Made by a program: the position numbers and the translations under genes. This document shows, piece after piece, positions 2,120 through 59,616 of a stretch of DNA of 64,000 nt. Below the pieces are notes generated by a model, which was not told the origin of the DNA, made no database searches, and was given only the letters and a program-made list of their open reading frames with translations. Every line of letters begins with the position of its first letter. Position 1 is the stretch's first letter. The DNA comes from an uncultured Nitrososphaerota archaeon (GTDB lineage Archaea > Thermoproteota > Methanomethylicia > Nezhaarchaeales > B40-G2): assembly GCA_964626365.1 (NCBI GenBank), contig CAZVDL010000005.1, forward strand, positions 3,075 to 67,074. Direction: 5' to 3'.

Positions 2120-2513
2120 CCTTCATCCTCTCCTCTTTAAGCCACCTATAGATGGTCTTCAGGGGTACCTTAACCTCCGACGCTATTTCCTTAACCGTCA
2201 AACCCCTCCTACTAAGCTCCACGACTCTTCCCTTAAGCGTCCTCCTCTCAGCTTTATGGTAACGGGCCCTCTCCTCAAACATCAACCTCTCCTTGAACCC
2301 TAAGAACTCCACGGCAAACATGAAAGCCTCGAGGGCCTCACTCCTACGTGAAAGATACCCCTTGATGCGCACCCTATAGCCTTCATCGAAGAACTCCTTA
2401 ACCTCGCTCAAAGCCTCCTTGACCTGCTCAAAGGTAACTGTAGCTCCCTCGAAGTAGAGCTCTACTTCCTTCTCCTCGTCCCGCCTATTCACTCTGTACA
2501 GCGCCCTAGCCAT
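2112..2513 (-). CDS. Small DNA-binding protein with a C-terminal helix-turn-helix, a putative transcriptional regulator.
   Basis: The C-terminal segment LSRRGLTVKEIASEVKVPLKTIYRWLK resembles resolvase/sigma-70 region-4-like HTH. The N-terminal part has no recognisable domain. Its 3' end overlaps hdrB convergently. Confidence 0.45.
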   Translation of the reverse strand: MARALYRVNRRDEEKEVELYFEGATVTFEQVKEALSEVKEFFDEGYRVRIKGYLSRRSEALEAFMFAVEFLGFKERLMFEERARYHKAERRTLKGRVVELSRRGLTVKEIASEVKVPLKTIYRWLKEERMKAT

Positions 2514-2592
2514 AGCTCTTCCTCCTTATTCAAGGGCCGAGGCTTATAAACTTTCTCACTTTAACATCAATCCTTAAAACGAGAAAAATTTA

Positions 2593-2607
2593 TAAACCCC
2601 TCTTCTC
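2593..2607 (+). promoter_or_regulatory. Archaeal BRE/TATA promoter (agaaaaa-TTTATAAA) placed for a leaderless transcript starting near 2630.
   Basis: A purine-rich BRE-like run immediately 5' of the TTTATAAA box (2600-2607). An ATG at 2635 lies about 28 nt downstream of the TATA centre. Confidence 0.4.
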
Positions 2608-2751
2608 ACTTCTATAAGCAGAGAAACTGAGAACATGGAGGTGGTGGACGTGATCTTGGCGCGCGCCGTGATCATGGGAGGGTTGATGGTTAAAATCACC
2701 GATAGAGGCCCTCCGATAGAAACCTAAACCCCCCGAGCGCTTTTTCCCTAG

Positions 2752-3060
2752 GTGCTACGTATGGTTGTCGTGGCTGAATTGACGGTTACGCCTCTAGGCT
2801 CAGGTGTAAGCGTTAGCTCCCTGGTGGCCGAGGCCGTTAAGGTGCTTAAAGAAGCTGGGGTTAAATACGAGGTGACTCCCATGTGCACAGTCTTCGAGGC
2901 CCCGACGGCTGAGGAGGCCTTTAAGCTAGCTTTAAAGGCCCACGAGGCGGTATTTAAGGCTGGAGCCGTGAGGGTGTTAACATCGATCAAAATAGACGAG
3001 CGTAGAGACGTCGAGCACTCAATGAAGAGAAAGATCGAGAGTTTAAGGTCTAAGCTCTAG
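2752..3060 (+). CDS. MTH1187/YkoF-family protein (UPF0045, DUF77). The likely start is ATG 2761.
   Basis: MVVVAELTVTPLGSGVSVSSLVAEAVKVLKEAGVKYEVTPMCTVFEA ... IKIDERRD matches the conserved ~100 aa MTH1187/YkoF fold signature (VxPxG, YExTPMxT, IDxRRD). Confidence 0.75.
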   Translation: MLRMVVVAELTVTPLGSGVSVSSLVAEAVKVLKEAGVKYEVTPMCTVFEAPTAEEAFKLALKAHEAVFKAGAVRVLTSIKIDERRDVEHSMKRKIESLRSKL

Positions 3061-3781
3061 GCGTTATGGCCACGGCCGCCTCGATGGCTAAGCCTGAAGA
3101 CGCCTCTTGGGGACTTAACGCCGCCAGCCTCCCTTTGATATTGACGCCCTCCAGCTGCTTTGAGGCCAAAAGCCTCGCTAGGTCCACGTAGTAAAGGAAA
3201 CTCCAGGGCTTCTCATCTCCCTTAGCTAACCTCCAATACCTGGCCTTATCTCGGCTCACCCTCTTACGGCGCTCCTCAATGAAGAGGTTGAGGTCTACGT
3301 CCCTCCATAGCTCCTCGGCGTGCTCAGTGCTCCATCTATATAGGTCTAACACCGTGTAGTCAGCGATCCTTAGATGGAGCTTCCACCCTTTTAAGTCGAG
3401 TTTAGCTCTAGATTCGACGGTGTCGACGGCTATCTTGGCTAGCTGCTGCTTCACCCCGTCGCCTATAGCTAGGATGGGGGAGACGTAGGCTGAGGCTAAG
3501 ATTACGCCTTCAACAACCCTCTCCTCTACTCCTAATAGCTCAGTGCATAGCTCCTTGAGCTTCTCCAAGGACTTAGTGGGGTAGACGAGCTCCACGAATG
3601 GCTTACCCTCCATCTTACCCTTAAAGAAGTCTCCAGCCCCTCTAAGCATGGTTGGCGGCACGCCGAGGTTCCTGTACTTAAACCTGTCCTTAAGCCACTT
3701 AACCCCCTCCTCGCCCTCCTCAGGGTCTATGAGGACCACGCCTCTAAGGTTCTTGACTAGGGAGGCGTACCTAGAAAACAA
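3050..3781 (-). CDS. Hypothetical protein of 243 aa. A very tentative guess is an HhH-like DNA glycosylase (AGOG-type).
   Basis: A long clean ORF with crenarchaeal codon usage. The only hint is an AIGDGVKQQLAKIAV helix-hairpin-helix-like segment. No firm family assignment is possible by eye. Confidence 0.45.
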   Translation of the reverse strand: MFSRYASLVKNLRGVVLIDPEEGEEGVKWLKDRFKYRNLGVPPTMLRGAGDFFKGKMEGKPFVELVYPTKSLEKLKELCTELLGVEERVVEGVILASAYVSPILAIGDGVKQQLAKIAVDTVESRAKLDLKGWKLHLRIADYTVLDLYRWSTEHAEELWRDVDLNLFIEERRKRVSRDKARYWRLAKGDEKPWSFLYYVDLARLLASKQLEGVNIKGRLAALSPQEASSGLAIEAAVAITPRA

Positions 3782-3795
3782 GGGGTGTTAACCTC

Positions 3796-4170
3796 TCAGG
3801 CGCCGAAGCAGCTTTTGTTCCACTCACACTCTGAACAGTACTTTGACCTCCACTCGCCGATCACGTTGGAGACCTTCTCCTTGACATAGCTCCACGTAGT
3901 CACCGCGCCCTTCTCTAGGCCCAGCAGCTTCAGGGCGTCCCGGTCCATAGCCTTAATCTCCTCCTCAGCGCCCTCGCTGTAAGCGCACTCGTCTCCTCTA
4001 AGGTAGGGGCAGGCGCTACATACCTCGTCGGCGTCGTCGACGACTATAATAGGCTCGCCACTCTCAAGCCTAGACAGTACATGTCTAGCCTTGGAGGCGA
4101 AGGCCTCACCTAGGGCCTCAGGCTTAAAGAAGTGTAAACATATCAGGTGGTGCCCTCTCAGCCTAGCCAA
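3796..4170 (-). CDS. DUF1284-family Cys-rich (putative Fe-S) protein.
   Basis: An N-terminal RGHHLIC motif plus C-terminal CSACP...C...CSEC clusters are typical of DUF1284. Confidence 0.65.
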   Translation of the reverse strand: MARLRGHHLICLHFFKPEALGEAFASKARHVLSRLESGEPIIVVDDADEVCSACPYLRGDECAYSEGAEEEIKAMDRDALKLLGLEKGAVTTWSYVKEKVSNVIGEWRSKYCSECEWNKSCFGA

Positions 4171-4276
4171 GCCTCACACCCATAGGTCGATAGCTGTGAG
4201 GGGGCTATTAAACCAGCGGCATCGAGATTTAATAGGCTAAAAGAGGCTTTAATTAGCCGCTGTTGAAGGTGGGACG

Positions 4277-5062
4277 ATGAGGGCCGACGTCGACGAGGCG
4301 CTGATAACGAGGATTATAGTTGAGGACTCGCTTAGACACTTATCCAGCCTAACAGAGCTCGACGTAGCGGTGGTTGGAGCGGGGCCCGCTGGCTTAACGG
4401 TTGCCCGCCTCCTAGCTAAGCGGGGCTTTAAGACCGCGGTTTTCGAGCGTAGGCTATCCTTCGGCGGGGGGATGGGAGGCGGAGGTATGCAGCTGCCTAG
4501 GATAGTCGTAGAGGAGGAGGCCGCGGCTCTCTTGGCTGAGCTGGGGTGCAGGTTATCGAGGGCCTCTAACGGCCTCTATGTAGCTGACGCCGCTGAGGCG
4601 CTAGCTAGGCTAGCGGCTGGGGCTGTTGAGGCTGGAGCCAACATACTGCTGGGCGTCTCGGTCGAGGATGTCGTCTACAGGGGGGCGCCGCCGAGGATAG
4701 TGGGCGTAGTGATCCAGTGGTCCTCGGTGCAGCTCTCAGGGCTCCACGTAGACCCCCTAGCTTTCAAGGCTAGGGCCACGGTCGACTGCACGGGCCACGA
4801 GGCCTCAGTAATCGCCGTGGCCTCTAGGAAGGTGCCTGGGCTAGGCGTACAGCTCAAAGGAGAGGGGGCTATGTGGGCCGGGGAGGGCGAGCGCCTCGTA
4901 GTTGAACGTAGCGGACGTGTATGCCCAGGCCTTTACGCCGCCGGCATGTCGGTGGCCGCGCTCTATGGTCTTCCGAGGATGGGCCCTATATTTGGGGGCA
5001 TGCTCCTCTCAGGTAGGAAGGCGGCCGAGGAGGTGGCTAGGGACCTAGCTGAGGGCGGTTAA
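4277..5062 (+). CDS. thi4: Thiamine thiazole synthase Thi4 (archaeal-type thiazole biosynthesis enzyme).
   Basis: DVAVVGAGPAGLTVARLLAKRGFKTAVFERRLSFGGGMGGGGM is the Thi4 dinucleotide-binding signature with a Gly-rich loop. The 261 aa size is typical. Confidence 0.85.
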   Translation: MRADVDEALITRIIVEDSLRHLSSLTELDVAVVGAGPAGLTVARLLAKRGFKTAVFERRLSFGGGMGGGGMQLPRIVVEEEAAALLAELGCRLSRASNGLYVADAAEALARLAAGAVEAGANILLGVSVEDVVYRGAPPRIVGVVIQWSSVQLSGLHVDPLAFKARATVDCTGHEASVIAVASRKVPGLGVQLKGEGAMWAGEGERLVVERSGRVCPGLYAAGMSVAALYGLPRMGPIFGGMLLSGRKAAEEVARDLAEGG

Positions 5063-7150
5063 ATGAGGGTGGTCAGGTCAGTATGCAGGATGTGTCACGG
5101 TGGCTGTGGGGCTCTCATATACGTGGAGGACGGCAGGGCGGTTAGGGTCGAGGGCGACCCCCAACATCCAGTTAGTAGGGGCTACATGTGCGCTAAGGGC
5201 TTAGCCTCCATCCAGCTAGCCTACCACCCTGATAGGCTTCGCTACCCGTTGAAGAGAGCTGGGGATAGGGGTGGAGGCAGCTGGGTTAGGGTCTCGTGGA
5301 ATGAGGCGCTGAGCGACATAGCTAAGAGGCTCTTGGAGATAAAGGAGCGCTACGGCGCTGAGGCGGTGGTCTTTGCCCACGGCACCAACAGGGAGTACCT
5401 ACACATGGTCTATAGGCTAGCCCACGCTTTCGGATCACCTAACGTGACCTCCCCAGGCTATGTCTGCTACTACCCTAGGGTAGCGGCCTCCATCCTGACC
5501 TGCGGCGGGCTACCCATAGCCGACTACGACGGCGAGCCGAAGTGCATAATGGTGTGGGGGTGCAACCCTCTCCACACAAGCCCAGACGAGTACTGCGCCG
5601 CTCAGCTATGCAGAGCGCTGGAACGCGGCCCCAAGTTAATAGTGGTCGACCCTAGACCCACGTGGCTAGCGTCTAGAGCTGACGTATGGCTTAGGATAAG
5701 GCCTGGCAGCGACGTGGCCTTAGCCCTAGGCCTCCTCAACGTCATAATCGAGGAGGGTCTCTATGATAGGGGTTTTGTTGAGCGGTGGACTGTGGGCTTC
5801 GATAAGCTGGCTAGCCACGTAAAGAAGTACACGCCTGAGAAGGTTGAGGGGTTGACTTGGGTTTCGGCTGGTTTGATTAGGGAGGCTGCTAGGCTTTATG
5901 CGTTGTCTAAGCCTGCCTGCATCCAATGGGGGGTTAAGATAGAGCAGAACGTGAACTGCACTAGCTGTATTAGGGCGCTAGTCGCGCTAATGGCTATAAC
6001 CGGGAACCTGGACGTCCCTGGAGGCAACGTCTTATGCTCGCCTCCTCCCGTAACCAGGTTCACCGAGTTCATGTTGACTAGCGCCTTGAGCGAGGAGCAG
6101 CGGCGTAAGAGGTTGGGAGGAGAACATAAGCTGTCCTCGATGGGCTCGGTCGTACCGCCTATGCACGTGGTTAAGGCCATACTTGAAGGAGACCCATACC
6201 CGGTTAAAGCCATGGTGGTGTTCGGCAGTAACCCCCTACTAACCTGGCCTAACTCCAAGCTGGTCAAGGAGGCCTTAATGAAGCTGGACTTCTTGGTGGT
6301 TGTGGACTTGTTTATGACTCCTACGGCTGAGTTGGCTGATTATGTGCTTCCTGCTGCCACCTGGCTGGAAATAGACGACGTGGCCTTCTACTTCTACAGG
6401 GCGGGCTACGTGATGGCCAGGCGTAAGGCCATAGAGGTAGACGAGTGTTGGCCAGACCACAAGATAATCATAGAGTTAGCTAAGAGGCTAGGCCTACGCG
6501 AGTGCTTCTGGGAGGACGTGGAGGAGTACTTGAACTACGTCTTAAAGCCTTCAGGCTTAACTTGGCGTGAGTTCGCTGAGCGAGGATGGCTTGAAGCTCC
6601 CAAGCGCTACCGTAAATACGAGGAGGAGGGCTTTAGGACGCTCTCAGGTAAAGTCGAGCTCTACTCTGAGACCTTAGAGAGGATGGGTTATAGCCCTCTG
6701 CCAGACTACGTGGAGCCTCCTGAGACCCCGCTAAGTAACCCTAAGCTAGCTGAGGAGTACCCCTTCATCCTAACCACCGGCCATAGAAGCCCCGCGTACT
6801 TCCATAGCGAGTACCGCCAGCTTCCCTGGCTTAGATCCATTCAACCGGACCCCATAGTCGAGCTGAGCCCTGAAGCAGCTAAGGAAATAGGGGTTGAGGA
6901 TGGGGACTGGGTGTGGATTGAGACGCCTAGGGGTAGAGTTAAACAGAGGGTTAAGGTGGTCCCTGGGATGCACCCTAAGGTGGTTAGTGCCCAGCACGGC
7001 TGGTGGTTCCCTGAGAAGCCTGGGCCTGAGCATGGCTGCTTCGAGTCCAACATCAACGTGGTGACTAGTAGCGAACCCCCCTACGATCCCTGCTTTGGGG
7101 CTGTAACCTTCAACGCCTTGCTATGCAGGGTGTATAAGGCGGAGGGGTGA
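5063..7150 (+). CDS. Molybdopterin (bis-MGD) oxidoreductase catalytic subunit of the DMSO-reductase / formate-dehydrogenase-like family. It is predicted cytoplasmic, with no Tat signal.
   Basis: The N-terminal CRMCHGGCG...C motif is a [4Fe-4S] binding site typical of the family. The 695 aa size fits. It starts 1 nt after the thi4 stop and is followed by an overlapping ferredoxin subunit. Confidence 0.85.
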   Translation: MRVVRSVCRMCHGGCGALIYVEDGRAVRVEGDPQHPVSRGYMCAKGLASIQLAYHPDRLRYPLKRAGDRGGGSWVRVSWNEALSDIAKRLLEIKERYGAEAVVFAHGTNREYLHMVYRLAHAFGSPNVTSPGYVCYYPRVAASILTCGGLPIADYDGEPKCIMVWGCNPLHTSPDEYCAAQLCRALERGPKLIVVDPRPTWLASRADVWLRIRPGSDVALALGLLNVIIEEGLYDRGFVERWTVGFDKLASHVKKYTPEKVEGLTWVSAGLIREAARLYALSKPACIQWGVKIEQNVNCTSCIRALVALMAITGNLDVPGGNVLCSPPPVTRFTEFMLTSALSEEQRRKRLGGEHKLSSMGSVVPPMHVVKAILEGDPYPVKAMVVFGSNPLLTWPNSKLVKEALMKLDFLVVVDLFMTPTAELADYVLPAATWLEIDDVAFYFYRAGYVMARRKAIEVDECWPDHKIIIELAKRLGLRECFWEDVEEYLNYVLKPSGLTWREFAERGWLEAPKRYRKYEEEGFRTLSGKVELYSETLERMGYSPLPDYVEPPETPLSNPKLAEEYPFILTTGHRSPAYFHSEYRQLPWLRSIQPDPIVELSPEAAKEIGVEDGDWVWIETPRGRVKQRVKVVPGMHPKVVSAQHGWWFPEKPGPEHGCFESNINVVTSSEPPYDPCFGAVTFNALLCRVYKAEG

Positions 7151-7641
7151 ATGTGGTTAAGCTAACCCTCCTCATTGACCCCTCCAAGTGTATAGGCTGC
7201 TACGCCTGCGAAGTCGCCTGTAAGCAGGAGCATGGGTTAAGTGGGTGGGCTGAGCCCTTCATCAAGGTGAAGGAAGTTAGGCGGCTGCATGGAACCTATG
7301 TAAGCTACGTCCCGGTGGTGTGTAGACATTGCGGGCGCCCTCCATGCATCGAAGTGTGTCCCACCGGCGCCCTTGAGAAGACGAAGGAGGGCGCGGTCCT
7401 TCTCGACGTCGAGAAGTGTATTGGCTGTGGTGCATGTATACCTGTATGTCCGTTCAAGGCCCTAGTCTTCGACCCTGAGGAGGGCGTTGTTAAGAAATGC
7501 GATCTTTGCGTTGAGAGGGTTAAGGAGGGCTTAGAGCCCAGCTGCGTAGCTCACTGCCCGTCGAGCGCGCTGGTCTTTGGGGAAACCTCCTCGCTAATCG
7601 ACGAGCTAAGATCCAAGTCTGCTGGCCAGCTGGCCAAGTAG
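7147..7641 (+). CDS. 4x[4Fe-4S] ferredoxin-type electron-transfer subunit of the molybdopterin oxidoreductase.
   Basis: Four CxxCxxCxxxCP-type motifs are present (CIGCYACEVAC, CRHCGRPPCIEVCP, CIGCGACIPVCP, CDLCV...CVAHCP). A 4-nt overlap with the upstream gene suggests translational coupling. Confidence 0.85.
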   Translation: MNVVKLTLLIDPSKCIGCYACEVACKQEHGLSGWAEPFIKVKEVRRLHGTYVSYVPVVCRHCGRPPCIEVCPTGALEKTKEGAVLLDVEKCIGCGACIPVCPFKALVFDPEEGVVKKCDLCVERVKEGLEPSCVAHCPSSALVFGETSSLIDELRSKSAGQLAK

Positions 7642-7706
7642 TGTTCCAATTACTCGTACACCTAAACAGTGAACTGCCAGCGTGCCCTCTGAGCTAGGGG
7701 GTCCCT

Positions 7707-8177
7707 GTGAGGACGTCGGCCTTAATGCTCGTCTTGCTGCTGCTGTTTAGCCTACAGCTTGCGTACGCCGATAAACTCTATGTACGCATCACGCAGCCAG
7801 CTAATGAGCTATGCATAGAGGTGTCTAATGCCTCGTGCGTGGTGGCTAAGGCCACACTAGACGGTAGGGTCTCTGCCGTGGTCTTTGAGCTACCGCCCGG
7901 GCGCTACTTAGTTAAGGTCTCGGCCTCGGGGCGCATTGTTGATGCCAGGGAGGTTGAGTTGCCCGGCGAGTCGTCGCTGGAGTTCGATGTAGCTAAGCAC
8001 GCGGCTCCCTCGGGTACTGTGAGGGAGTTTAGCTCGTCAGGCCTGAAGCAGCTAGGCGGCGTTGAGGGGGCGGTGCCCTCAGCTCTAGGGGCCGTTAACG
8101 CTCTGTTGTTGCTAGCCGCGTCGGCTATGCTGGCCGCGGTGTTATCTTTAACAGTCAAGCTGCTCAAGAAGCTTTAG
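7707..8177 (+). CDS. Secreted or membrane-anchored hypothetical protein.
   Basis: An N-terminal signal peptide (MRTSALMLVLLLLFSLQLAYA) and a C-terminal hydrophobic anchor. Confidence 0.5.
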   Translation: MRTSALMLVLLLLFSLQLAYADKLYVRITQPANELCIEVSNASCVVAKATLDGRVSAVVFELPPGRYLVKVSASGRIVDAREVELPGESSLEFDVAKHAAPSGTVREFSSSGLKQLGGVEGAVPSALGAVNALLLLAASAMLAAVLSLTVKLLKKL

Positions 8178-8195: not shown

Positions 8196-8660
8196 TTGGC
8201 TAAGCGGCTTCTGCCTCAAGGTACGACACTGAGGGTCTACGTGGCTATGCTGAGGGCAGGTAGGCCTCTCGGCGTTAGGGAGGTGCAGCGCATGTTGGGG
8301 TTTAAGAGCCCCTCAACGGCCCTCTATCACATAAACAAGTTGTTGGACATGGGCTACGTGGTTAAGGCGGAGGAGGGCTACGAGGCCTTGGCGGTTAAGG
8401 GGGAGGCTGGCATATTGGGCCTCTTCAACCGCGTAGGGACCCTCTTAGTGCCTAGGGTGCTGTTCTATGCCCTCTTCTTCACGACCTCGCTCGTGCTCTT
8501 CTTAACGGCCTCCCTCGCCCAGCAGGCAACTTATCAATTCCTTTACACCTACGCCCTAGCTTTAACCTCCACCGCCGCGGCGCTGATGTGGTATGAAGCG
8601 TTTAAGCTATGGAGAGGGCTCGAGTTTGAAGTCAGGCGTCACGCCAGCTCAATACCGTAG
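8196..8660 (+). CDS. Winged-helix transcriptional regulator with a C-terminal membrane domain.
   Basis: An N-terminal wHTH-like segment (RPLGVREVQRMLGFKSPSTALYHINKLLDMGYV) is followed by 2-3 predicted transmembrane helices. Confidence 0.5.
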   Translation: MAKRLLPQGTTLRVYVAMLRAGRPLGVREVQRMLGFKSPSTALYHINKLLDMGYVVKAEEGYEALAVKGEAGILGLFNRVGTLLVPRVLFYALFFTTSLVLFLTASLAQQATYQFLYTYALALTSTAAALMWYEAFKLWRGLEFEVRRHASSIP

Positions 8661-11477: not shown

Positions 11478-12254
11478 TCACCGATCCACTTTAAGGTCTA
11501 CTGAGGCTGCTGAAGCCTGGACGTCTATGACTAGCCCCTCCCTGAAGCCGGGGTCCGCGATTACACGCTCCTCGAAACCGCTCACTGAGGTCTTAGCCAG
11601 CTCCTTTACGTTCACGTCTACCTCGGCGGCGTCGGCCGAGGCCTTAATGTAGACCTTTGACTCCTTGGGTACCTTAATCCTTAGCTCAACTCCCCCCGCG
11701 CTAACGTCTATGTTTAATGAGGACGTAGCGTTGCTGTACTCTAGGGTTCCTTCAAGGCTCCCTGCGCTAACCCTAAAGGAGAAGACGGTCCTGTTAAGTC
11801 CTCCTAGCTCCACGGTGCCTGAGCCCGCGCTCACTTTTACCTCGATCTCCCTTAGGATGGAGGGGTTGAGGTACACCACCACCGACCCAGCTTTAACCTC
11901 CACCTCTAAGCGCCCCCCTTCCTCCACCACCGAGTAGTCCGTGGAGCTCCAGGGCATGAGGGCTCCGTAGACCTCGACCCTATACGCTAGGCTCTCCTCC
12001 GCTTCCTCAACCCTTAGGTTACCAGCGCTCAGCTCAGCCCTAACCCTTAGTTCTTGGACCTCGGTCATATTCTTCTCGTAGCTGGCTAACAGCTTACCCT
12101 TACCCCATGCCACGGTCCAGGCCCCTTCAACCTTTAAGCTGGGGTAGAAGCCTATGGCTGGGGACACTAAGGCTATGAGAAGCGAGGACCCTAAAATGGC
12201 CGCGACTAAGAGACCCGCAACCTCCTCAGCCCTCATGTCCACCACGCCTCCCAT
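11478..12254 (-). CDS. DUF4097-like (LiaG-type putative adhesin) beta-repeat protein with an N-terminal membrane anchor. The start is probably ATG 12254.
   Basis: An N-terminal TM helix is followed by repeated short beta-strand modules (VSAGS.., DVSAGG.., VKASADAAEVDV), typical of DUF4097 repeats. Confidence 0.5.
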   Translation of the reverse strand: MGGVVDMRAEEVAGLLVAAILGSSLLIALVSPAIGFYPSLKVEGAWTVAWGKGKLLASYEKNMTEVQELRVRAELSAGNLRVEEAEESLAYRVEVYGALMPWSSTDYSVVEEGGRLEVEVKAGSVVVYLNPSILREIEVKVSAGSGTVELGGLNRTVFSFRVSAGSLEGTLEYSNATSSLNIDVSAGGVELRIKVPKESKVYIKASADAAEVDVNVKELAKTSVSGFEERVIADPGFREGLVIDVQASAASVDLKVDR

Positions 12255-12877
12255 GACGTCGCTAAGAAAAAGATGGCTGAACCCACCACGGCCAGTATCA
12301 GCCAAGGGAAGAACGATGAGGCGAGGCCCTTGCCCAGTGATATCCCATGCGCCTCAGACATCCCTATGCCGACCACGACGCCCTTCCACACCCAAGCCAC
12401 GAAGGCTCCAAGCAGCGCTATTAGTGCTAGCCTAGGGGACGCCACCGCCACTAGCAGCGATGCCAGGGAGGCGGAGTCAGTCACCCAAGCATACCCCACC
12501 GCGTTCAGGCTATGCGCGTACTCTCCTCCTCCATTGAAGGACTTGGCAAGGGCGTGAGCGAAAAGGCTCCACATGAACCATAGGAAGAGCTCAAAAAGCA
12601 CCCCAATGGCCATGGCTCCATAGACCAACAGGCTCGTAAGCCACGGCGCAGCCCAGTCCGTCACTGCTTCTAACGGAGTTACACCGAAGCTTCCAATGGC
12701 CGAGGCCGCTAAGCCGGCTACGAGGAGGCCACGTAGCCCCCACTTAGAGGCCGAGAAGAGGATCACATATGCTAGGGGTTCTAAAGGCCCTCGCCTCTCG
12801 TGTATCGCTATGCTTAAGTACACCCTAGGAGAAGTTATGAAGCCGCCAACTCTAACGAGAGCTCCCGGAATCTTCAT
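12233..12877 (-). CDS. Yip1-domain polytopic membrane protein.
   Basis: Five or so predicted TM helices and the Yip1-like topology. It is co-directional and tightly packed with the DUF4097 and ArsR genes. Confidence 0.5.
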   Translation of the reverse strand: MKIPGALVRVGGFITSPRVYLSIAIHERRGPLEPLAYVILFSASKWGLRGLLVAGLAASAIGSFGVTPLEAVTDWAAPWLTSLLVYGAMAIGVLFELFLWFMWSLFAHALAKSFNGGGEYAHSLNAVGYAWVTDSASLASLLVAVASPRLALIALLGAFVAWVWKGVVVGIGMSEAHGISLGKGLASSFFPWLILAVVGSAIFFLATSWEAWWT

Positions 12878-31802: not shown

Positions 31803-32570
31803 CTAGCGACCCCCACACGTTGGGCAACGGGGCGACCTCTCGACGAGCAGGTGGTCAAAGGTCATGGTGAGCCCATTGAACACGAGCAGCTTTCCAATTA
31901 AGGCTTCGCCTACGCCCGTCAACAGCTTTATAGTCTCCACCACTTGGAGGGCTGCCATGACGGCTGGAGTGGCCCCAAAGACTGGGATGGGCCTAGGCTC
32001 CTTAGGATCCACGGGCACCAGGCAGCGTAGGCATGGACCCTTGCCGGGCACGATTGTCATGAGCCTGCCCTCGAAGCCCCGCACGCCAGCGTAGATGAAA
32101 GGTTTGCCCAGCCTCACACAGGCCTCGTTAACCATGAACCTGGTCCTGAAGTTGTCTAAGCCGTCGACAACCACGTCGGCCTCCTTAACTAGGCCTTGAA
32201 CGTTGTCCTCATCGACCCTAGCGGCTACGGCCTCGACCTTGACCTCGGGGTTTAGCTGGCGGAGCTTCTCAGCGGCTGAATCCACCTTAAGCCTGCCGAG
32301 GTCCTTGGTCCAATGGAGCACCTGCCTATTGAGATTGCTTAGCTCAACCGCCTCGCTGTCAACTATGATAAGCTTACCAACTCCAGCGGCAGCTAGATAC
32401 ATGGACGACGCGCTGCCTAAGCCCCCTACGCCCACTACGAGGACCGTGGCGTTCTTCAGTTTAGCCTGGCCTTCAACGCCGAAGCCGGGTATACGTATCT
32501 GCCTATCATACCTCTCGAGCTCGTGGACGGTGAACTGTAAGCCTCGGCTTGTCTCCGAGCGAATGTTCAT
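31803..32570 (-). CDS. moeB: MoeB/ThiF/UbaA-type E1-like adenylyltransferase.
   Basis: ELERYDRQIRIPGFGVEGQAKLKNATVLVVGVGGLGS (Rossmann GxGxxG) and C-terminal CLRC...CPTCG zinc-binding cysteines. Confidence 0.85.
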   Translation of the reverse strand: MNIRSETSRGLQFTVHELERYDRQIRIPGFGVEGQAKLKNATVLVVGVGGLGSASSMYLAAAGVGKLIIVDSEAVELSNLNRQVLHWTKDLGRLKVDSAAEKLRQLNPEVKVEAVAARVDEDNVQGLVKEADVVVDGLDNFRTRFMVNEACVRLGKPFIYAGVRGFEGRLMTIVPGKGPCLRCLVPVDPKEPRPIPVFGATPAVMAALQVVETIKLLTGVGEALIGKLLVFNGLTMTFDHLLVERSPRCPTCGGR

Positions 32571-32851
32571 CCCCCACCCAAGGAGACCTCTATGAGGTCC
32601 GATATTATGACCCTGTCACCGTCCTTCAACTTGCGGTCCAGCTTGAACACAAAAGCGTTGTTGACTATCAACGCTACGTCGCGGCTGACCTCTCCACTTC
32701 GACCCGCTATGTCCTCGAACAGGTCATCGTACCTAGAGGCTAAGGCTGAGATCAAGTCCTTTAAGCTAGCTCCTTCGGGCAGCTCCTCAATTAGCTCCTT
32801 TTCGCCGGCGACCTCCCTGAAGGCGCCAGCCAGCACCACGGTAATCTTCAT
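32567..32851 (-). CDS. moaD: MoaD/ThiS-type sulfur-carrier protein ending in Gly-Gly(-Gly). Its ATGA overlap with moeB suggests translational coupling.
   Basis: A 94 aa beta-grasp-like sequence ending ..LIEVSLGGG*. It sits immediately upstream of moeB. Confidence 0.7.
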   Translation of the reverse strand: MKITVVLAGAFREVAGEKELIEELPEGASLKDLISALASRYDDLFEDIAGRSGEVSRDVALIVNNAFVFKLDRKLKDGDRVIISDLIEVSLGGG

Positions 32852-32937: not shown

Positions 32938-34998
32938 TTGGGGCTCAGGTTGAGGATCATTAAGACAGCCTGCGAGCTCTGCGCTTGGAGCTGCGGCATG
33001 GAGGTTTACGTGGAGAGCGGCAGAGTGGTTAAGGTCAAGGGAATGAAGGAACACCCTCTCAATAGGGGTCGGCTTTGCCCTAAAGCTCCAGCCATAGTCG
33101 ACTTAATGTACCACGGTGAGAGAGTCTTAACCCCCATGGTAAGGGAGGGGGCTAAGTGGAGGAAGGTGGACTGGGACTACGCGTTGGAGCTCTTAGTGGA
33201 GAACCTTAAGGAGGTGAGGGAGGAGGACCCTCGCTCCTTCGCCATGATAATAGGGATGCCCATTCTACTTGGCGGCTCCTCCACGGTAGGCTTAATAAGG
33301 CGCTTCATGGACGTCTACGGCTCCCCTAACTGCTTCTCCCCTGAAAGCATGTGCTATAGGCACCAGATCATAGGTTACATTCTAACGCTGGGCAAGTTCC
33401 CGGTCCCGGAAGTCGAAAACTCCAACTGCATAGTGGTGTGGGGCCATAACCCCCACGAATCTAAGCCCCCCTTAGCTTGGAGGATCGAGGAAGCTAGGAG
33501 GAGGGGGGCTAAACTCATAGTCATAGATCCCCGTAGGACCAAGGTAGCTGAGATGGCTGACATACACGCCCCGATTAGGCCTGGAAGCGACATATACCTG
33601 GCCGTGGGGATGATGAAGGTCATAATCGAGGAGGGTCTCTATGATAGGGGTTTTGTTGAGCGGTGGACTGTGGGCTTTGATAAGTTGAAGGAGCATCTAT
33701 CCAAGTACAGCTTGTCCTACATAGCTGAGAGGACGTGGCTCGACGAGGAGCTCATAGCTAAGATGGCCAGGGTCTTCGCCACGGTCAAGCCTGCCTGCAT
33801 AGTTCAAGGCGTAAACACCTTGGATCAGGTGCTCGTAGGTGTACAGAACGCTAGGAGCATAGCTATGCTCCATGCGCTTACAGGCAACGTTGACGTTAAG
33901 GGCGGCCTCGTAAGGGCCTCGAGGAGCCACATAGCCTCTCTTCGCCTACCGCACCTGCTAAGGGATGAGCCCCTGGGCATTAAGGAGCACCCTCTCTTCT
34001 ATCAAGTGTGGGAGACCCATCTAGGCGAGGGGCAGGCAATGTACCTCTACGACGCCATCTTAGAGGGGAGGCCCTACCAGGTGAAGTCACTCTTCATAGC
34101 CGGCTCAAATCCCCTTCTCACCTGGCCCGAAGCGTCTAAACTGGCTGAAGCCTTAGGGAAGGTCAAGTTCCTAGCCGTGATGGACCTCTTTATGACCGAC
34201 ACCGCTAAGCATGCCCACCTCCTCTTGCCCGCGGCTACCTTCCTAGAGAGGTATGAGCTCTGCGACTATTACAGCGTGATCTTCGGCATACCCTACATGA
34301 TGCTGAGGAAGAAATGCGTAGAGCCTATAGGGGGGTCTAAGAGCGACGTGGAGCTCTGGCTCGAGGTAGCTAGGAGGATGGGCTACACCGAGCACTTCCC
34401 TTGGAGGAGCGTCGAGGAGGTCTTAGACTACGTCTTGAAGCCCACGGGCTACACCTTTAAGGATCTCGAGGAGGTGTACCCTTCAGGGGTCTGGGTAGGC
34501 AAGGTGAACTACGGCGAATACCTCAGTAAGGGGTTTAGGACGCCCTCAGGTAAAGTCGAGCTCTACTCTGAGACCTTAGCTAGGCAAGGCTACGACCCCC
34601 TACCTACGCCGAGGGAGCCCTACGAGTCGCCCTTCAACGAGGATTCCAAGGAGTACCCCCTCATACTGACCACAGGCTCTAGGTTAATCTACTACACGCA
34701 TTCACAGCTTAGAAACGTGGAGAGGCTTAGGAAGCAGTGCCCTGAGCCCTACGTTGAAATGAACCCTGACACCGCGCGCAGGTATGGTTTAAGGGACGGG
34801 GGCGTGGTCGTGATTAAAACTAGGAGGGGTAGCATAAAGGTGAAGGTGAGGACGACCCCCACTATACTGCCCGGTGTCATAAACATGTCTCATGGGTGGA
34901 ACGAAGCCAACGTAAACCTGCTAACCTCAAGTAGGCCAGCAGACCCCGTCTCCGGATGTCCTGAACTTAAAGCTCTATTAGCTAGGGTATCACGATAA
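32938..34998 (+). CDS. Molybdopterin oxidoreductase catalytic subunit, a paralog of the gene at 5063-7150.
   Basis: An N-terminal CELCAWSCG...C [4Fe-4S] motif. It shares blocks with the first copy (VIIEEGLYDRGFVERWTVGFDKL; SGKVELYSETL). There is no adjacent ferredoxin subunit. Confidence 0.85.
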   Translation: MGLRLRIIKTACELCAWSCGMEVYVESGRVVKVKGMKEHPLNRGRLCPKAPAIVDLMYHGERVLTPMVREGAKWRKVDWDYALELLVENLKEVREEDPRSFAMIIGMPILLGGSSTVGLIRRFMDVYGSPNCFSPESMCYRHQIIGYILTLGKFPVPEVENSNCIVVWGHNPHESKPPLAWRIEEARRRGAKLIVIDPRRTKVAEMADIHAPIRPGSDIYLAVGMMKVIIEEGLYDRGFVERWTVGFDKLKEHLSKYSLSYIAERTWLDEELIAKMARVFATVKPACIVQGVNTLDQVLVGVQNARSIAMLHALTGNVDVKGGLVRASRSHIASLRLPHLLRDEPLGIKEHPLFYQVWETHLGEGQAMYLYDAILEGRPYQVKSLFIAGSNPLLTWPEASKLAEALGKVKFLAVMDLFMTDTAKHAHLLLPAATFLERYELCDYYSVIFGIPYMMLRKKCVEPIGGSKSDVELWLEVARRMGYTEHFPWRSVEEVLDYVLKPTGYTFKDLEEVYPSGVWVGKVNYGEYLSKGFRTPSGKVELYSETLARQGYDPLPTPREPYESPFNEDSKEYPLILTTGSRLIYYTHSQLRNVERLRKQCPEPYVEMNPDTARRYGLRDGGVVVIKTRRGSIKVKVRTTPTILPGVINMSHGWNEANVNLLTSSRPADPVSGCPELKALLARVSR

Positions 34999-35033
34999 GA
35001 TTTTAATGCTAAGGCTCCAGCCCTTAAGAAGAG

Positions 35034-36116
35034 ATGAAGGTTCTCCTAGTATGCGACAAACACCCCTCAACAATAGGGGGCGTTGAAGAACATGTTAGAG
35101 GGCTTGCTGGGCAGCTGGCAGCGAGAGGCTTTGAGGTCGTAATCGCCTATAGGAAGGAGGGTAGAGCCTTCATCAATCAATTAGACTTCGACTCGGTACG
35201 GGTTGGCTTAGACCTTCTAAGGCTTAAAAGGAGGATTTCCAGCCTTAACCCTGACGTAGTCCACGCTCATTACTCTTTCAACTGGCTACCTCTTCTGGCC
35301 ATAGCAGCCGCCAGCCAGCTTAGGTTAAAGGTCGTGGTCACGTGTCATAGTGTGCTTCCAGGCTATGACCAAGACTTTTTAGGCCATCTCTACGCGCTAA
35401 CACCTCATCGACCCCTACTCTCTAAGGCTGATGCGTTGATCTCAGTGAGCAGGGCTGTAGATTTACTTATGTCGAGGATCGTTGGTAGCAAGGTTAGGAG
35501 AGCTGTCATACCCAACGCCGTGGACATAAACGTATACGCCCCTTCGCCCAGAGAGCCTAAGGACCCCCTAGTGCTCTACGTTGGGAGGTTAATATACCGT
35601 AAAGGAGTCCATGTCCTACTTCAAGCTTTCAGGCAGGTGGTTAAGGAGGAGCGAGATGCCAAGCTAGTTGTGGTTGGAGGAGGCTACCTTGAACCTCTAC
35701 TAAGGACTATGGCCTCGAAGTTTAACCTTAAAGGAAGGGTGGAGTTTAAGGGTTTAGTACCCGACCAGGAGAAAGCCTCACTTTACAGGTCTGCTTGGGC
35801 TGTAGCTGTACCTACGCTATACGCTGAGGGCTTCGGGATAGTAGCCATCGAGGCCATGGCTTCGGGGGCCCCTGTCGTAGCCTCTAAGGTGGGTGGGCTT
35901 AAGGAAGTGGTTGAGGATAGGGTGACAGGGCTACTTGTCAAGCCGGGGTCGGCTAAGGAGCTAGCTAGAGTCCTCCTCTCGCTAATCCAAGACCCCTCGC
36001 TGCGCAGAAAGCTTTCGTCCAACGCCAGGGCTAAGGCTGTTAGTAATTACTCGTGGAGGACCGTGGCTGGGAGGGTCGTCGACGCGTACATGGATCTTAG
36101 GGCCAGCCCTACTTAG
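35034..36116 (+). CDS. GT4-family glycosyltransferase.
   Basis: A GT-B fold pattern with the C-terminal EGFGIVAIEAMASGAPVVASKVGG sugar-nucleotide-binding signature. Confidence 0.8.
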   Translation: MKVLLVCDKHPSTIGGVEEHVRGLAGQLAARGFEVVIAYRKEGRAFINQLDFDSVRVGLDLLRLKRRISSLNPDVVHAHYSFNWLPLLAIAAASQLRLKVVVTCHSVLPGYDQDFLGHLYALTPHRPLLSKADALISVSRAVDLLMSRIVGSKVRRAVIPNAVDINVYAPSPREPKDPLVLYVGRLIYRKGVHVLLQAFRQVVKEERDAKLVVVGGGYLEPLLRTMASKFNLKGRVEFKGLVPDQEKASLYRSAWAVAVPTLYAEGFGIVAIEAMASGAPVVASKVGGLKEVVEDRVTGLLVKPGSAKELARVLLSLIQDPSLRRKLSSNARAKAVSNYSWRTVAGRVVDAYMDLRASPT

Positions 36117-36492
36117 ATGATAAGTTGAACGGCTTACCCTCGGTTAGTACACGGCTAGGTATCTTATCCCTCCATTTCTCTAGGAAGGCTCGGTCCTCCT
36201 TAGCATCACGTAGGTCGTCCGGCAACATGTGAGGTATCTCCTCAATTATAGGGTACCAGCGGCCGCAGTTATCGCATATTAATATCCCTTCAGCTACTTC
36301 ACGGGCAAAGCATTCATGACAGTTGCCTTTACCCTCCTTAACCCACTTTCTAAGCCATCCACAGTACTCCTCACAGGTCCTTGAGGGTATACGCTCAGGC
36401 TTTTCGTAGAGGTTCTCTTGGAACACCACCAGCTGAAGGGGGAACCGCTTACATATGGGACATGCAAGGAGGTCCATTAACCTATACTTCAA
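36109..36492 (-). CDS. Trm112-family small zinc-binding protein (methyltransferase activator) with an inserted Cys-rich segment.
   Basis: N-terminal LLACPICK and C-terminal CDNCGRWYPIIEEIPHML match Trm112/DUF343. Confidence 0.65.
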   Translation of the reverse strand: MKYRLMDLLACPICKRFPLQLVVFQENLYEKPERIPSRTCEEYCGWLRKWVKEGKGNCHECFAREVAEGILICDNCGRWYPIIEEIPHMLPDDLRDAKEDRAFLEKWRDKIPSRVLTEGKPFNLSSK

Positions 36493-58350: not shown

Positions 58351-58515
58351 ATCCTAGCCCCAAGCTAAGTTAGCCTACGTGGTTTAAACGGTTTTGGTTA
58401 AAGGCTCCTCGGCTAAGGCTTAAAAACCCCCCATTCAACCCTAAACTGAGGCTCAACTACATCTCGGCGCGCCTTCCACCTCTCCAAGGAAGAATACACC
58501 GCGAGGTGTTTAGCG

Positions 58516-59616
58516 TTGGTGTACCTGGTAGTCACCCACGGGACGAGCTCCATAGATCTATACAGCGTCAGGCTCGCCAATTACCTGAAGGTGCCGCTGC
58601 TCCACACCGACATCTACCAGCGCATTAGGAGACTCTTCAATAAGCCGCTCCTAAGCCCCTACCTCTTCGAGGGCTTCATGTTGCTAAAGGACTTCGTTAA
58701 GAGGCTACGCGAGACACCTGGCATACCCCACCTACCCAACCACCACCTAGGTAGGTTCGGCTACTTTCTAGGCAAGCCCTTCATTATAACCGTCCACGAC
58801 TTAATGAGGTACCTAGACCTTGTAGGAGGCGGGCCCTGCTTAATCCGTAAGCCCAACCTACAGGACGCACTGTGGCTACACCTCGACTACCTCGGTGCCG
58901 TCAAGGCGGCTAAAATAGTCGTCCCCTCCAATCACACTAAGAACGACCTCGTAAGGTACCTTAAGGTGCCCGAGGAGAAGGTGGTGGTCATATACCACGG
59001 CATCGACGAGGCCTTCAAGCCCGTGGAGGGCCCTAGGCCCTGCGAGGAGCCCTACGTGCTCTATGTAGGCTCAGAACACCCCAGAAAAAACCTAGCAACG
59101 CTACTTAAAGCCTTCAAGCTGTTGAAGCAGGACCCCAAGTTTAGGGAGCTGAAGCTCGTTAAGGCCGGCCCCGCGGGCGGGGAGGAGAAGAGCTTTAGGA
59201 GCGACACCATGTCCGTGGTCGAGGCCCTAGGCCTAAAGGGCGACGTGATCTTCGTGGATAGGTGGTTAAGCGTGGAGGAGCTCGCCGCGCTCTATAGTCA
59301 GGCTGAGCTCTTTGCTTTCCCGTCTATCTATGAGGGTTTTGGCTGGCCTCCACTTGAAGCTATGGCCTGTGGCTGCCCAGTAATAGCATCAAACACCACC
59401 AGCCTGCCTGAGGTGCTGGGCGACGCAGCCATGTACGCGGACCCAGCCAGCCCTGAAGCCTGGGCTGAGGCCATGGAGCGCGTGCTGACTGACGATAGGC
59501 TCCGCAGAAAGCTGGCGTCCATGGGGCTGGAGAGGGCTAAGCAGTTCACTTGGAGGAGAGCGGCTGAGCAGCTGCTTAGGGTGTATGAGGAGGTGGAGGA
59601 GCTCTACGGGGCTTAG
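58516..59616 (+). CDS. GT4-family glycosyltransferase.
   Basis: A C-terminal EGFGWPPLEAMACGCPVIASN signature. Codon usage is AT-richer than neighbours. Confidence 0.8.
   Translation: MVYLVVTHGTSSIDLYSVRLANYLKVPLLHTDIYQRIRRLFNKPLLSPYLFEGFMLLKDFVKRLRETPGIPHLPNHHLGRFGYFLGKPFIITVHDLMRYLDLVGGGPCLIRKPNLQDALWLHLDYLGAVKAAKIVVPSNHTKNDLVRYLKVPEEKVVVIYHGIDEAFKPVEGPRPCEEPYVLYVGSEHPRKNLATLLKAFKLLKQDPKFRELKLVKAGPAGGEEKSFRSDTMSVVEALGLKGDVIFVDRWLSVEELAALYSQAELFAFPSIYEGFGWPPLEAMACGCPVIASNTTSLPEVLGDAAMYADPASPEAWAEAMERVLTDDRLRRKLASMGLERAKQFTWRRAAEQLLRVYEEVEELYGA

What the first reader, a model, noticed from the sequence alone, without database searches (positions are those of the whole stretch)
5741..5799. 59-nt and 35-nt tracts of perfect nucleotide identity between two otherwise diverged molybdopterin oxidoreductase paralogs (gene conversion)
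The two molybdoenzyme genes (5063-7150 and 32938-34998) are only moderately similar at protein level over most of their length. Two patches stand out. A 59-nt run (5741-5799 matching 33619-33677, encoding IIEEGLYDRGFVERWTVGF) is identical at every position. A 35-nt run (about 6643-6677 matching 34545-34579, encoding SGKVELYSETL) is also identical. Synonymous positions are identical too. That argues for recent inter-paralog recombination or gene conversion rather than purifying selection on protein sequence. An overlapping functional nucleic-acid element is the alternative.
Basis: seen in the sequence. Interest (0 to 1): 0.6.

Follow-up and report, generated by a model that had tools for sequence, protein, structure and literature searches.

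The report
Patchwise gene conversion between molybdoenzyme paralogs
Two distantly related molybdenum-enzyme genes of an uncultured heat-loving archaeon have copied short stretches (35-103 bases) of DNA into each other and into a third copy elsewhere in the genome; this is a clear but essentially ordinary case of gene conversion, with an odd excess of T in the copied patches.

Summary
Genes A (5063-7150) and B (32950-34998) are 44% identical in protein and 53% in DNA. Their synonymous sites match no better than chance. Yet they share perfect runs of 59 nt and 35 nt, against a next-longest run of 14 nt and a maximum of 32 nt in 5000 codon shuffles.

Gene conversion is well supported.
- B's 59-nt patch encodes an A-family peptide (A to B). 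A's 35-nt patch encodes a B-family peptide (B to A).
- In a sister lineage the orthologous pair is homogenised at the same two sites with different synonymous bases. Site patterns there group by genome 11:1 inside the tracts, against 392:24 for orthology outside.
- Gene A also shares perfect 103-, 88- and 60-nt runs with a third paralog C. C lies outside the window, apparently in the same MAG, and is 62% identical in protein.
- A third lineage shows a 44-nt tract between another paralog pair.

No RNA structure, Rfam family, promoter-like motif or viral match supports a nucleic-acid element.

Two extras remain unexplained. Three tracts are rich in T, with 15 of 19 derived changes being to T. 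Six of ten variable sites among assemblies fall inside tracts, although assembler cross-talk between paralogs could produce some of these.

Verdict: a new member of a known kind, of moderate interest.

The parts
5063..7150 (+). Gene A. It encodes a cytoplasmic bis-MGD (DMSO-reductase superfamily) oxidoreductase of 695 aa, and its closest solved relative is acetylene hydratase. It is the hub of the exchanges.
   Evidence: Pfam domains Molybdop_Fe4S4, Molybdopterin and Molydop_binding. No NCBIfam model reaches its cut-off. PDB 2e7z matches at E = 1e-122. The same protein occurs in at least 4 independent assemblies.
32950..34998 (+). Gene B, a paralogous bis-MGD oxidoreductase of 682 aa with a TTG start. 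It is 44% identical to A in protein.
5741..5799 (+). Tract T1 in gene A (59 nt, encoding VIIEEGLYDRGFVERWTVGF). This is the donor-type sequence.
   Evidence: Identical to 33619-33677. The peptide RWTVGFDKL is typical of A-family orthologs.
33619..33677 (+). Tract T1 in gene B, an A-type patch inside a B-type gene (direction A to B).
   Evidence: B orthologs at about 70% identity have YCHGF-type sequence here. This is the region where B most resembles the A family rather than its own.
6643..6677 (+). Tract T2 in gene A (35 nt, encoding SGKVELYSETL), a B-type patch inside A (direction B to A).
   Evidence: Identical to 34545-34579. A orthologs have YSSxLES, whereas B orthologs have YSETLA.
34545..34579 (+). 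Tract T2 in gene B, the donor-type sequence.
5832..5934 (+). Tract AC1: 103 nt identical to paralog C (P0014, outside the window). It is rich in T.
   Evidence: equals L009 10779-10881. T3 excess p = 0.0003.
6283..6370 (+). Tract AC2: 88 nt identical to paralog C. The peptide is native to the A family (direction A to C). It is rich in T.
   Evidence: T3 excess p = 0.01.
6706..6765 (+). Tract AC3: 60 nt identical to paralog C.
7147..7641 (+). Gene for a 4Fe-4S ferredoxin-type (DmsB-like) subunit directly downstream of A. This is context: neither B nor C has such a neighbour.

Best explanation
The identical patches are short tracts of ectopic (interlocus) gene conversion between diverged paralogous molybdopterin-oxidoreductase genes in one archaeal genome. 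The organism is an uncultured member of the Thermoproteota, and its relatives are labelled Nezhaarchaeales. Shown here: gene A gave a 59-nt patch to gene B, and gene B gave a 35-nt patch to gene A. Gene A also shares 103-, 88- and 60-nt patches with a third paralog C, mostly in the direction A to C. The same two A/B sites were homogenised separately in a sister lineage, and another paralog pair in a third lineage carries a 44-nt tract. The process is therefore recurrent in this clade. Inferred: the mechanism is the short-patch, discontinuous, gene-conversion mode of homologous recombination described for Sulfolobus acidocaldarius. Inferred: pairing starts at the family's most conserved motifs, the only places where paralogs this diverged keep enough local nucleotide identity. 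Each conversion restores identity there, so the same sites become self-reinforcing hot spots.
For: - Tract length far exceeds chance, and synonymous sites are identical inside the tracts but saturated outside.
- Direction follows from family-specific residues.
- Quartet A, A2, B, B2: inside the tract windows 11 sites group by genome and 1 by orthology; outside, 392 group by orthology, 24 by genome and 15 crosswise. A/B and A2/B2 share different synonymous bases at the same codons.
- Paralog C shares runs of 103, 88 and 60 nt with A against 66% background identity, with a shuffle maximum of 43.
- C occurs in the same three samples as A. NCBI accessions RLF16236 (A), RLF16192 (B) and RLF15779 (C) all read 'MAG: Thermoprotei archaeon'.
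- In the third lineage, A3 and X3 share a 44-nt run against a shuffle maximum of 33.
- The tracts are reproduced in independent JGI, MEGAHIT and SPAdes assemblies.
- At all four variable sites of gene A, which all lie inside tracts, one allele is the paralog's allele.
- Short-patch conversion of moderately diverged DNA is documented in a hyperthermophilic crenarchaeon (PMC3367456).
Against: - Flanking identity is very low (53% in DNA), so classical homology-dependent strand invasion would be inefficient. The actual enzymology is untested.
- Three tracts have a T-rich composition foreign to all three genes. Simple copying between residents does not predict this.
- That C lies in the same genome as A and B rests on co-occurrence and adjacent accession numbers, not on a shared contig.
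- Taken alone, the A2/B2 runs (29 and 26 nt) fall within the shuffle range. Only their positions and site patterns make them significant.
Confidence: 0.85

Rival explanations
1. Third-party donor. The patches in A, B and C were not copied from one another. Instead they were imported from an external A-type homolog with T-rich codon usage, carried by another organism or an unsampled paralog. Multiple short patches of the incoming DNA would have replaced the best-matching segments of each resident paralog.
For: T1, AC1 and AC2 are T3-rich (37-38% against a window mean of 16%). Such patches are very rare in the window: 27 of 16885 20-codon windows. Fifteen of 19 derived changes in these tracts are to T. 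Incorporation of incoming DNA as multiple discontinuous patches is known in Sulfolobus. A-family orthologs with higher T3 (22-28%) exist.
Against: No donor was found. The degenerate and exact scans of genome contigs and metagenome contigs, the viral scans and 80 GTDB loci returned only A, B and C themselves. No sampled ortholog is closer than 70-85% to any tract. The tracts are no more diverged from the A-family consensus than the rest of A: 0.076 against 0.060 changes per nt. T2 and AC3 are not T-rich. Conversions in the sister and third lineages are not T-rich. Where copies differ, the recipients B and C carry T while A keeps the ancestral C. That pattern suggests the T arose during or after transfer.
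Confidence: 0.1
2. Overlapping functional nucleic-acid element. Identity would be kept by selection on DNA or RNA, for example an embedded sRNA, an antisense RNA acting on both mRNAs, or a protein-binding site, rather than by copying.
For: Rfam gives only a chance-level match to the C/D-box family sR44 at 33606-33661 (16 bits against a gathering score of 45, E = 1). An ATGATGA C-box-like heptamer lies at 33610 in B. The same two sites are identical in two lineages.
Against: There is no D box, and nothing comparable in gene A. Folding z-scores for all five tracts on both strands range from -1.9 to +0.7. Nothing was found in Rfam across gene A. Gene A has no TATA-like motif on either strand. Orthologs differ freely at synonymous sites within the tract. 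Five tracts at different positions, with different partners and sharp edges, do not fit one element.
Confidence: 0.03
3. Assembly artefact. The identical patches, or their perfection, were created when the assembler collapsed or cross-corrected paralogous reads.
For: All four variable sites of gene A lie inside tracts. Each toggles between the paralog's base and another base among assemblies. Bubble-popping between near-identical repeats would produce exactly this pattern. The window carries the paralog's allele at all four sites.
Against: At least 56-58 of 59 nt (T1) and 100% of T2 and AC3 are reproduced in independent JGI, MEGAHIT (k141) and SPAdes assemblies from different samples. The tracts are shorter than typical reads and shorter than the final k-mer. 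The protein-level donor signatures are also present in a sister lineage.
Confidence: 0.02

Closest known systems
Interlocus gene conversion and concerted evolution of prokaryotic paralogs, e.g. mtrA-1/mtrA-2 of methanogens (PMC4632066) and the recurrent cases surveyed in PMC6053082
   Same: Paralogs in one genome are homogenised over part of their length. The signal groups by genome instead of by orthology, and it recurs in separate lineages.
   Different: Here the partners are far more diverged (44-62% in protein, with saturated synonymous sites). The tracts are very short (35-103 nt) and scattered, whereas the mtrA abstract describes whole domains being homogenised. Exchange is bidirectional and involves at least three paralogs with one hub. 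The word molybdopterin does not occur in the main text of that survey.
Short-patch, discontinuous gene-conversion mode of homologous recombination in Sulfolobus acidocaldarius (Mao & Grogan 2012, PMC3367456)
   Same: That system transfers multiple short, separate intervals of moderately diverged DNA and can separate markers 20-30 nt apart. The organism is a hyperthermophilic member of the Thermoproteota. Gene A likewise carries five separate tracts within 1.1 kb.
   Different: The Sulfolobus work used introduced DNA that recombined with the allelic locus in the laboratory. Here the exchange is ectopic, between resident paralogs in a wild, uncultured lineage. The enzymology and the MutSL status of this genome were not examined.
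Gene conversion among archaeal chaperonin (thermosome) subunit paralogs (Archibald & Roger, early 2000s; recalled from memory, not read here)
   Same: Conversion between paralogs is recurrent and lineage-specific in archaea, and is confined to part of the gene.
   Different: The gene family is different. To my recollection those paralogs are much more similar overall. No T-biased signature was reported there, as far as I know.
Mutagenic gene conversion and hypermutation of single-stranded recombination intermediates in yeast (recalled from memory, not read here)
   Same: Substitutions cluster and are coordinated by strand within repair tracts. Here 11 of 19 derived changes in the tracts are C>T on one strand, against 1 G>A.
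   Different: No induced break or deaminase is implied here. The cause would be spontaneous thermal damage. This is only a hypothesis for the T bias.

Membership tests
Interlocus (ectopic) gene conversion between paralogs | Donor and recipient are paralogs resident in the same genome | tested here: met
   A and B lie on the same contig: in the window, and in ERZ27227321 contig k141_342847. For C this is inferred only: it occurs in the same three samples, and its NCBI accession is adjacent to those of A and B in one 'Thermoprotei archaeon' MAG submission.
Interlocus (ectopic) gene conversion between paralogs | Identical fragment significantly longer than expected from the overall divergence (a Sawyer/GENECONV-type test) | tested here: met
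   The observed runs are 59 nt against a shuffle maximum of 32 (A/B), 103 against 43 (A/C) and 44 against 33 (A3/X3), each from 5000 codon-column shuffles.
Interlocus (ectopic) gene conversion between paralogs | Synonymous sites are homogenised inside the tract and diverged outside it | tested here: met
   For A/B, 29 of 30 same-amino-acid codons are identical inside and 0.43 outside (random expectation 0.41), p = 3e-9. For A/C, 77 of 78 inside against 0.47 outside, p = 1e-20.
Interlocus (ectopic) gene conversion between paralogs | Phylogenetic incongruence: the tract groups by genome and the rest of the gene by orthology | tested here: met
   Quartet site patterns are 11 genome to 1 orthology inside the tracts. 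Outside they are 392 orthology, 24 genome and 15 cross.
Interlocus (ectopic) gene conversion between paralogs | Non-reciprocal transfer with an identifiable donor | tested here: met
   T1 carries A-family residues in B and B2. T2 carries B-family residues in A. The AC2 peptide in C is an exact match to A-family members. The direction of AC1 and AC3 is mixed or unclear.
Interlocus (ectopic) gene conversion between paralogs | Dependence on the recombination machinery (RadA, Mre11/Rad50 and others) | not testable with these tools
   This requires genetics in a cultured relative.
Sulfolobus-type short-patch discontinuous recombination | Several short, separate tracts within one recombining interval | tested here: met
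   Five tracts of 35-103 nt lie within 1.1 kb of gene A and are separated by fully diverged sequence.
Sulfolobus-type short-patch discontinuous recombination | Absence of MutS/MutL-type mismatch repair in the organism | not tested
   Only 64 kb of the genome was available. The whole MAG was not searched.
Embedded small RNA (e.g. archaeal C/D-box sRNA) or structured RNA element | Match to a covariance model at or above the gathering score; C and D boxes present; stable or conserved structure | tested here: not met
   The best Rfam match scores 16 bits against a gathering score of 45 (E = 1) and occurs in B only. No D box is present. Folding z-scores range from -1.9 to +0.7.
Recent whole-gene duplication | Near-identity along the whole length | tested here: not met
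   DNA identity is 53% overall, and third-position identity is 43%.

The most novel reading that the evidence does not exclude
Gene conversion in this thermophile may itself be mutagenic, with a signature of thermal damage to single-stranded DNA. While a copied strand is single-stranded, cytosines deaminate (C>T) and purines are lost (N>T after insertion of A opposite the abasic site). Each transfer would then leave strand-coordinated T substitutions in the recipient, and repeated back-and-forth transfer would ratchet the tracts towards T. This would account for four observations. (1) Fifteen of 19 derived changes in T1, AC1 and AC2 are to T (11 C>T against 1 G>A). (2) Where copies differ, the recipients B and C carry T while donor A keeps the ancestral C. 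(3) Variable sites among strains cluster in the tracts. (4) A further T-rich patch sits on the conserved motif of a glycosyltransferase, another gene family with at least two copies in the window.
Probability: 0.15. Interest if true: 0.7.

Novelty: new member of a known kind. Interest (0 to 1): 0.45.

Why it matters
This is natural-population evidence from an uncultured archaeal order. It shows recombination moving patches of 35-100 bases between genes whose flanks are only about 53% identical. It happens repeatedly, at the same conserved motifs, and among at least three paralogs. That fits the short-patch recombination seen in laboratory Sulfolobus and extends it to ectopic exchange in the wild.

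In practice such mosaics can mislead ortholog assignment, gene trees and substrate prediction for the large family of molybdopterin oxidoreductases. They can also create false single-base variants in metagenome assemblies.

The T-biased signature, if it proves to be caused by conversion, would offer a way to study DNA damage in recombination intermediates at high temperature.

Tried and rejected
- **Degenerate peptide-level scan of genome contigs for T1:** 0 hits. The window's species is therefore not among the GTDB representatives.
- **Exact scan of metagenome contigs for a T1 core:** 0 hits. The pattern began with GGT, and gene A in the JGI sample has GGC there. Why gene B was not found remains unexplained.
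- **Exact scan of metagenome contigs for an AC2 core:** it found only gene C's own contig.
- **Protein search with the concatenated tract peptides, intended to find an outside donor:** it retrieved only 59 candidates and 6 uninformative fragments.
- **blastn of the five tracts against all 90-odd fetched loci:** only A, B and C themselves match.
- **Closest A orthologs P0013 and P0006 as possible donors:** they are only 68-77% identical in the tracts, the same as over the rest of the gene.
- **Viral contigs:** no match.
- **RNA element:** rejected.
- **The second glycosyltransferase gene in the window as a partner for the T-rich patch at 59290-59370:** no shared tract.
- **Look-up of the NCBI variant of B (P0249):** not on record.
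- **The tool's promoter scan:** not used, because it models bacterial sigma-70 sites and this organism is an archaeon.
Full report
**1. The observation**

Window 5741-5799 and 33619-33677 are identical at all 59 positions. Window 6643-6677 and 34545-34579 are identical at all 35 positions. They are the two longest repeats in the whole window. Both copies lie on the + strand, 27.9 kb apart.

The two genes are A (5063-7150, 695 aa) and B (called from the TTG at 32950 in other assemblies, 682 aa). Both carry the three Pfam domains of the molybdopterin (bis-MGD) oxidoreductase family. Neither has a signal peptide-like N-terminus; the Fe4S4 cysteine motif starts at about residue 8. No NCBIfam model reaches its cut-off. 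The nearest solved structure is acetylene hydratase, 2e7z, at E = 1e-122.

A and B are 44.2% identical in protein, 53.1% in DNA and 42.7% at third codon positions. Their next-longest identical run is 14 nt. Shuffling codon columns 5000 times gave a mean longest run of 13.5 and a maximum of 32.

At codons that encode the same amino acid, the codon is the same in 106 of 248 cases (0.43) outside the tracts. That equals the 0.41 expected from the window's codon usage, so synonymous sites are saturated. Inside the tracts the figure is 29 of 30 (Fisher p = 3e-9). The tracts are much longer than expected, and the genes are not near-identical overall.

**2. Origin of the window**

The exact protein A occurs on contigs from JGI samples 3300014887 and 3300022470 and from ENA assemblies ERZ27227321 and ERZ27248328. 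NCBI holds it as RLF16236.1, 'MAG: Thermoprotei archaeon'. The closest relatives that carry a name are labelled Candidatus Nezhaarchaeales or Nezhaarchaeota. The organism is therefore an uncultured member of the Thermoproteota. Independent assemblers (JGI, MEGAHIT k141, SPAdes) reproduce the tracts.

**3. Direction of transfer**

I aligned 30 A-family and 39 B-family proteins.
- The T1 peptide (EEGLYDRGFVERWTVGFDKL) is the A-family form. B orthologs at about 70% identity have E(E/N)YC(H/Y)GF there.
- A sliding comparison finds this to be the single region where B looks most like the A family rather than its own: identity 0.80 against 0.48. T1 therefore went from A to B.
- The T2 peptide ends in YSETL, the B-family form. 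A orthologs have YSSxLES. T2 therefore went from B to A.

**4. Recurrence in a sister lineage**

JGI sample 3300045873 holds A2 (P0007, 75% identical to A) and B2 (P0122, 84% identical to B). B2 also carries the A-type peptide at T1. A2 and B2 share 29-nt and 26-nt runs at exactly the two A/B sites, but with different synonymous bases:

| Pair | T1 codons | T2 codons |
|---|---|---|
| A / B | GGT..TAT..GGT TTT | GGT AAA GTC |
| A2 / B2 | GGG..TAC..GGC TTC | GGC AAG GTG |

Counting informative sites in the quartet gave the following:

| Region | Group by genome ((A,B),(A2,B2)) | Group by orthology | Crosswise |
|---|---|---|---|
| Inside the two tract windows | 11 | 1 | 0 |
| Outside | 24 | 392 | 15 |

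This is the signature of concerted evolution. The same two sites have been converted independently, or continuously, in both lineages. Taken alone, the A2/B2 runs are not longer than shuffles allow. The evidence lies in their position and site pattern.

**5. A third partner**

While reading the homolog list I noticed that A shares long exact peptides with P0014, which is only 62% identical overall. Its gene, C, lies on other contigs of the same samples that hold A: ERZ27227321, ERZ27248328 and JGI 3300014887. NCBI lists it as RLF15779.1, 'MAG: Thermoprotei archaeon'. That number is close to those of A and B, so it was probably binned in the same MAG (this is an inference).

A and C are 66% identical in DNA, yet they share perfect runs of 103, 88 and 60 nt. 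These correspond to window 5832-5934, 6283-6370 and 6706-6765, and their edges are sharp. The shuffle maximum was 43, and codon identity is 77 of 78 inside against 0.47 outside, p = 1e-20. The AC2 peptide in C is an exact A-family sequence, so AC2 went from A to C. AC1 and AC3 are mixed. B and C share nothing longer than 14 nt. Gene A is thus a mosaic and the hub of the exchanges.

**6. A third lineage**

In GCA_038894875.1 (Nezhaarchaeales), the A-type gene P0006 and a neighbouring paralog are 45% identical in protein. They share a perfect 44-nt run that encodes an A-type peptide, against a shuffle maximum of 33. Micro-conversion between these enzymes is therefore a habit of the clade.

**7. 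Rival: a nucleic-acid element**

- Rfam finds nothing in gene A. In B there is only a chance-level C/D-box match: sR44, 16 bits against a gathering score of 45, E = 1.
- B has a C-box-like ATGATGA, which arises from its Met-Met-Lys codons, but no D box. A has neither.
- Neither strand of gene A, nor the neighbourhood of the tracts in B, holds a TATA-like motif.
- The five tracts, folded on both strands, give z-scores between -1.9 and +0.7.
- Orthologs vary freely at synonymous sites in the tract.
- Five tracts with different partners and positions do not suit a single element.

**8. Likely mechanism (inferred)**

Both A/B tracts sit on motifs conserved across the whole family, and they are also conserved in acetylene hydratase. 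These are the only places where such diverged paralogs keep enough local identity to pair. The extended regions are 115 nt at 84% identity and 76 nt at 83%. Each conversion renews the identity, so the sites stay hot.

[quoted passage not shown] This mode has been linked to the natural lack of MutSL in hyperthermophilic archaea (PMC3367456). Partial, long-lasting conversion between archaeal paralogs is also known for mtrA (PMC4632066), and recurrent concerted evolution in prokaryotes has been surveyed (PMC6053082).

Only A has an adjacent Fe-S subunit gene (7147-7641), whereas B and C do not. Selection for a shared partner interface could help A-type patches become fixed. This is speculation that I did not test.

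**9. Unexplained: T richness**

T1, AC1 and AC2 have 37-38% T at third codon positions, against 16% for the window. Given the peptides and the window's codon usage, p = 0.008, 0.0003 and 0.01 respectively. T2 and AC3 are normal. Only 27 of 16885 20-codon windows in the whole window reach 50% T3, and gene A holds two of the four such regions.

I polarised gene A against the near-consensus of six orthologs. Fifteen of 19 derived changes in these tracts are to T (11 C>T, 3 G>T, 1 A>T, against only 1 G>A). Outside the tracts the figure is 27 of 111 (p = 8e-6). The overall rate of change is similar inside and outside (0.076 against 0.060 per nt).

Where the copies differ, the recipient carries T and A keeps the ancestral C. 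Examples are TTT and TTG in B against TTC and CTG in A just 3' of T1, position 696, and position 1270.

Conversions in the other two lineages are not T-rich. No outside donor was found. Two readings remain open: an unsampled T-rich donor, or strand-biased damage (deamination, depurination) of single-stranded intermediates at high temperature.

**10. Variation among assemblies**

| Gene | Variable sites (gene positions) | Sites inside tracts |
|---|---|---|
| A | 696, 841, 861, 1270 | 4 of 4 |
| B | 543, 699, 713, 926 | 2 of 4 (699 and 713, both in T1) |
| C | 513, 1895 | 0 of 2 |

Six of ten variable sites fall in the 11% of sequence made up of tracts (p = 3e-4).

At each A site one allele equals the paralog's base, and sites 861 and 1270 show all four allele combinations. 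This fits ongoing exchange. It is also what assembler cross-talk between near-identical repeats would produce, so I give it little weight until reads are checked. The window's gene A has the paralog's base at all four sites, so its perfect identity may be slightly flattering. The other four gene A assemblies read C at window 5758.

**11. Verdict**

It is a well-documented new example of a known process. It involves unusually diverged partners, very short recurrent tracts and a curious compositional signature.

Noticed in passing
window 59290-59370 (in the glycosyltransferase gene 58450-59613, + strand): This is one of only four T3-rich patches in the window. It lies exactly on the family's conserved motif (FPSIYEGFGWPPLEAMACG) of a GT4 glycosyltransferase, a family with at least two copies in the window. 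It may be another conversion tract whose partner lies outside the window. The other GT4 gene (35034-36116) shares no tract with it.
   Followed up: partly
L095 (GCA_038894875.1) 2320-7642, compared with window 32950-36492: In this related MAG the A-type gene (P0006) sits next to the Trm112 and OB-fold Ssb-like genes. In the window, the Trm112 gene lies two genes downstream of gene B, and the other assembly of B shows the Ssb-like gene beyond it. A second molybdoenzyme paralog lies 0.8 kb away on the other strand. The paralogs have therefore changed places or been swapped between loci during the evolution of the order.
   Followed up: no
window 31803-32851 (- strand), and L007 12097-12522: Gene B is preceded by divergently oriented ThiF/MoeB-like and ThiS/MoaD-like genes, and gene C is followed by a MoaE gene. 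Parts of the molybdopterin synthase system are thus scattered next to the different paralogs. Gene A directly abuts a Thi4-like gene: its ATG at 5063 follows that gene's stop codon at 5060-5062.
   Followed up: no
window 7707-8177 and 8196-8660 (+ strand): Two ORFs lie downstream of the Fe-S subunit gene and are kept in all assemblies. They have no convincing Pfam family, only a sub-threshold LexA_DNA_bind match for the second. They could be further subunits or a regulator of enzyme A.
   Followed up: no
Metagenome-contig scan for T1: The exact T1 core was not found in the JGI collection, although that collection holds gene C's contig from sample 3300014887, and a gene B protein variant (P0249) is listed with JGI/IMG among its sources. 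Either B's contig is not held there, or B's tract differs by at least one base in that sample. If B there had GGC, as gene A does in that sample, that would be direct evidence of co-variation.
   Followed up: partly
L006 1-883 (next to A2, JGI 3300045873): Two PaREP1-family genes flank the A-type gene in the sister lineage. The locus context of A is therefore not conserved between lineages.
   Followed up: no
window 12252-12344 (- strand): A fourth T3-rich stretch lies at the 5' end of the long ORF 11481-12353, which has no Pfam match. The true start is probably further downstream, so this stretch may not be coding in that frame.
   Followed up: partly
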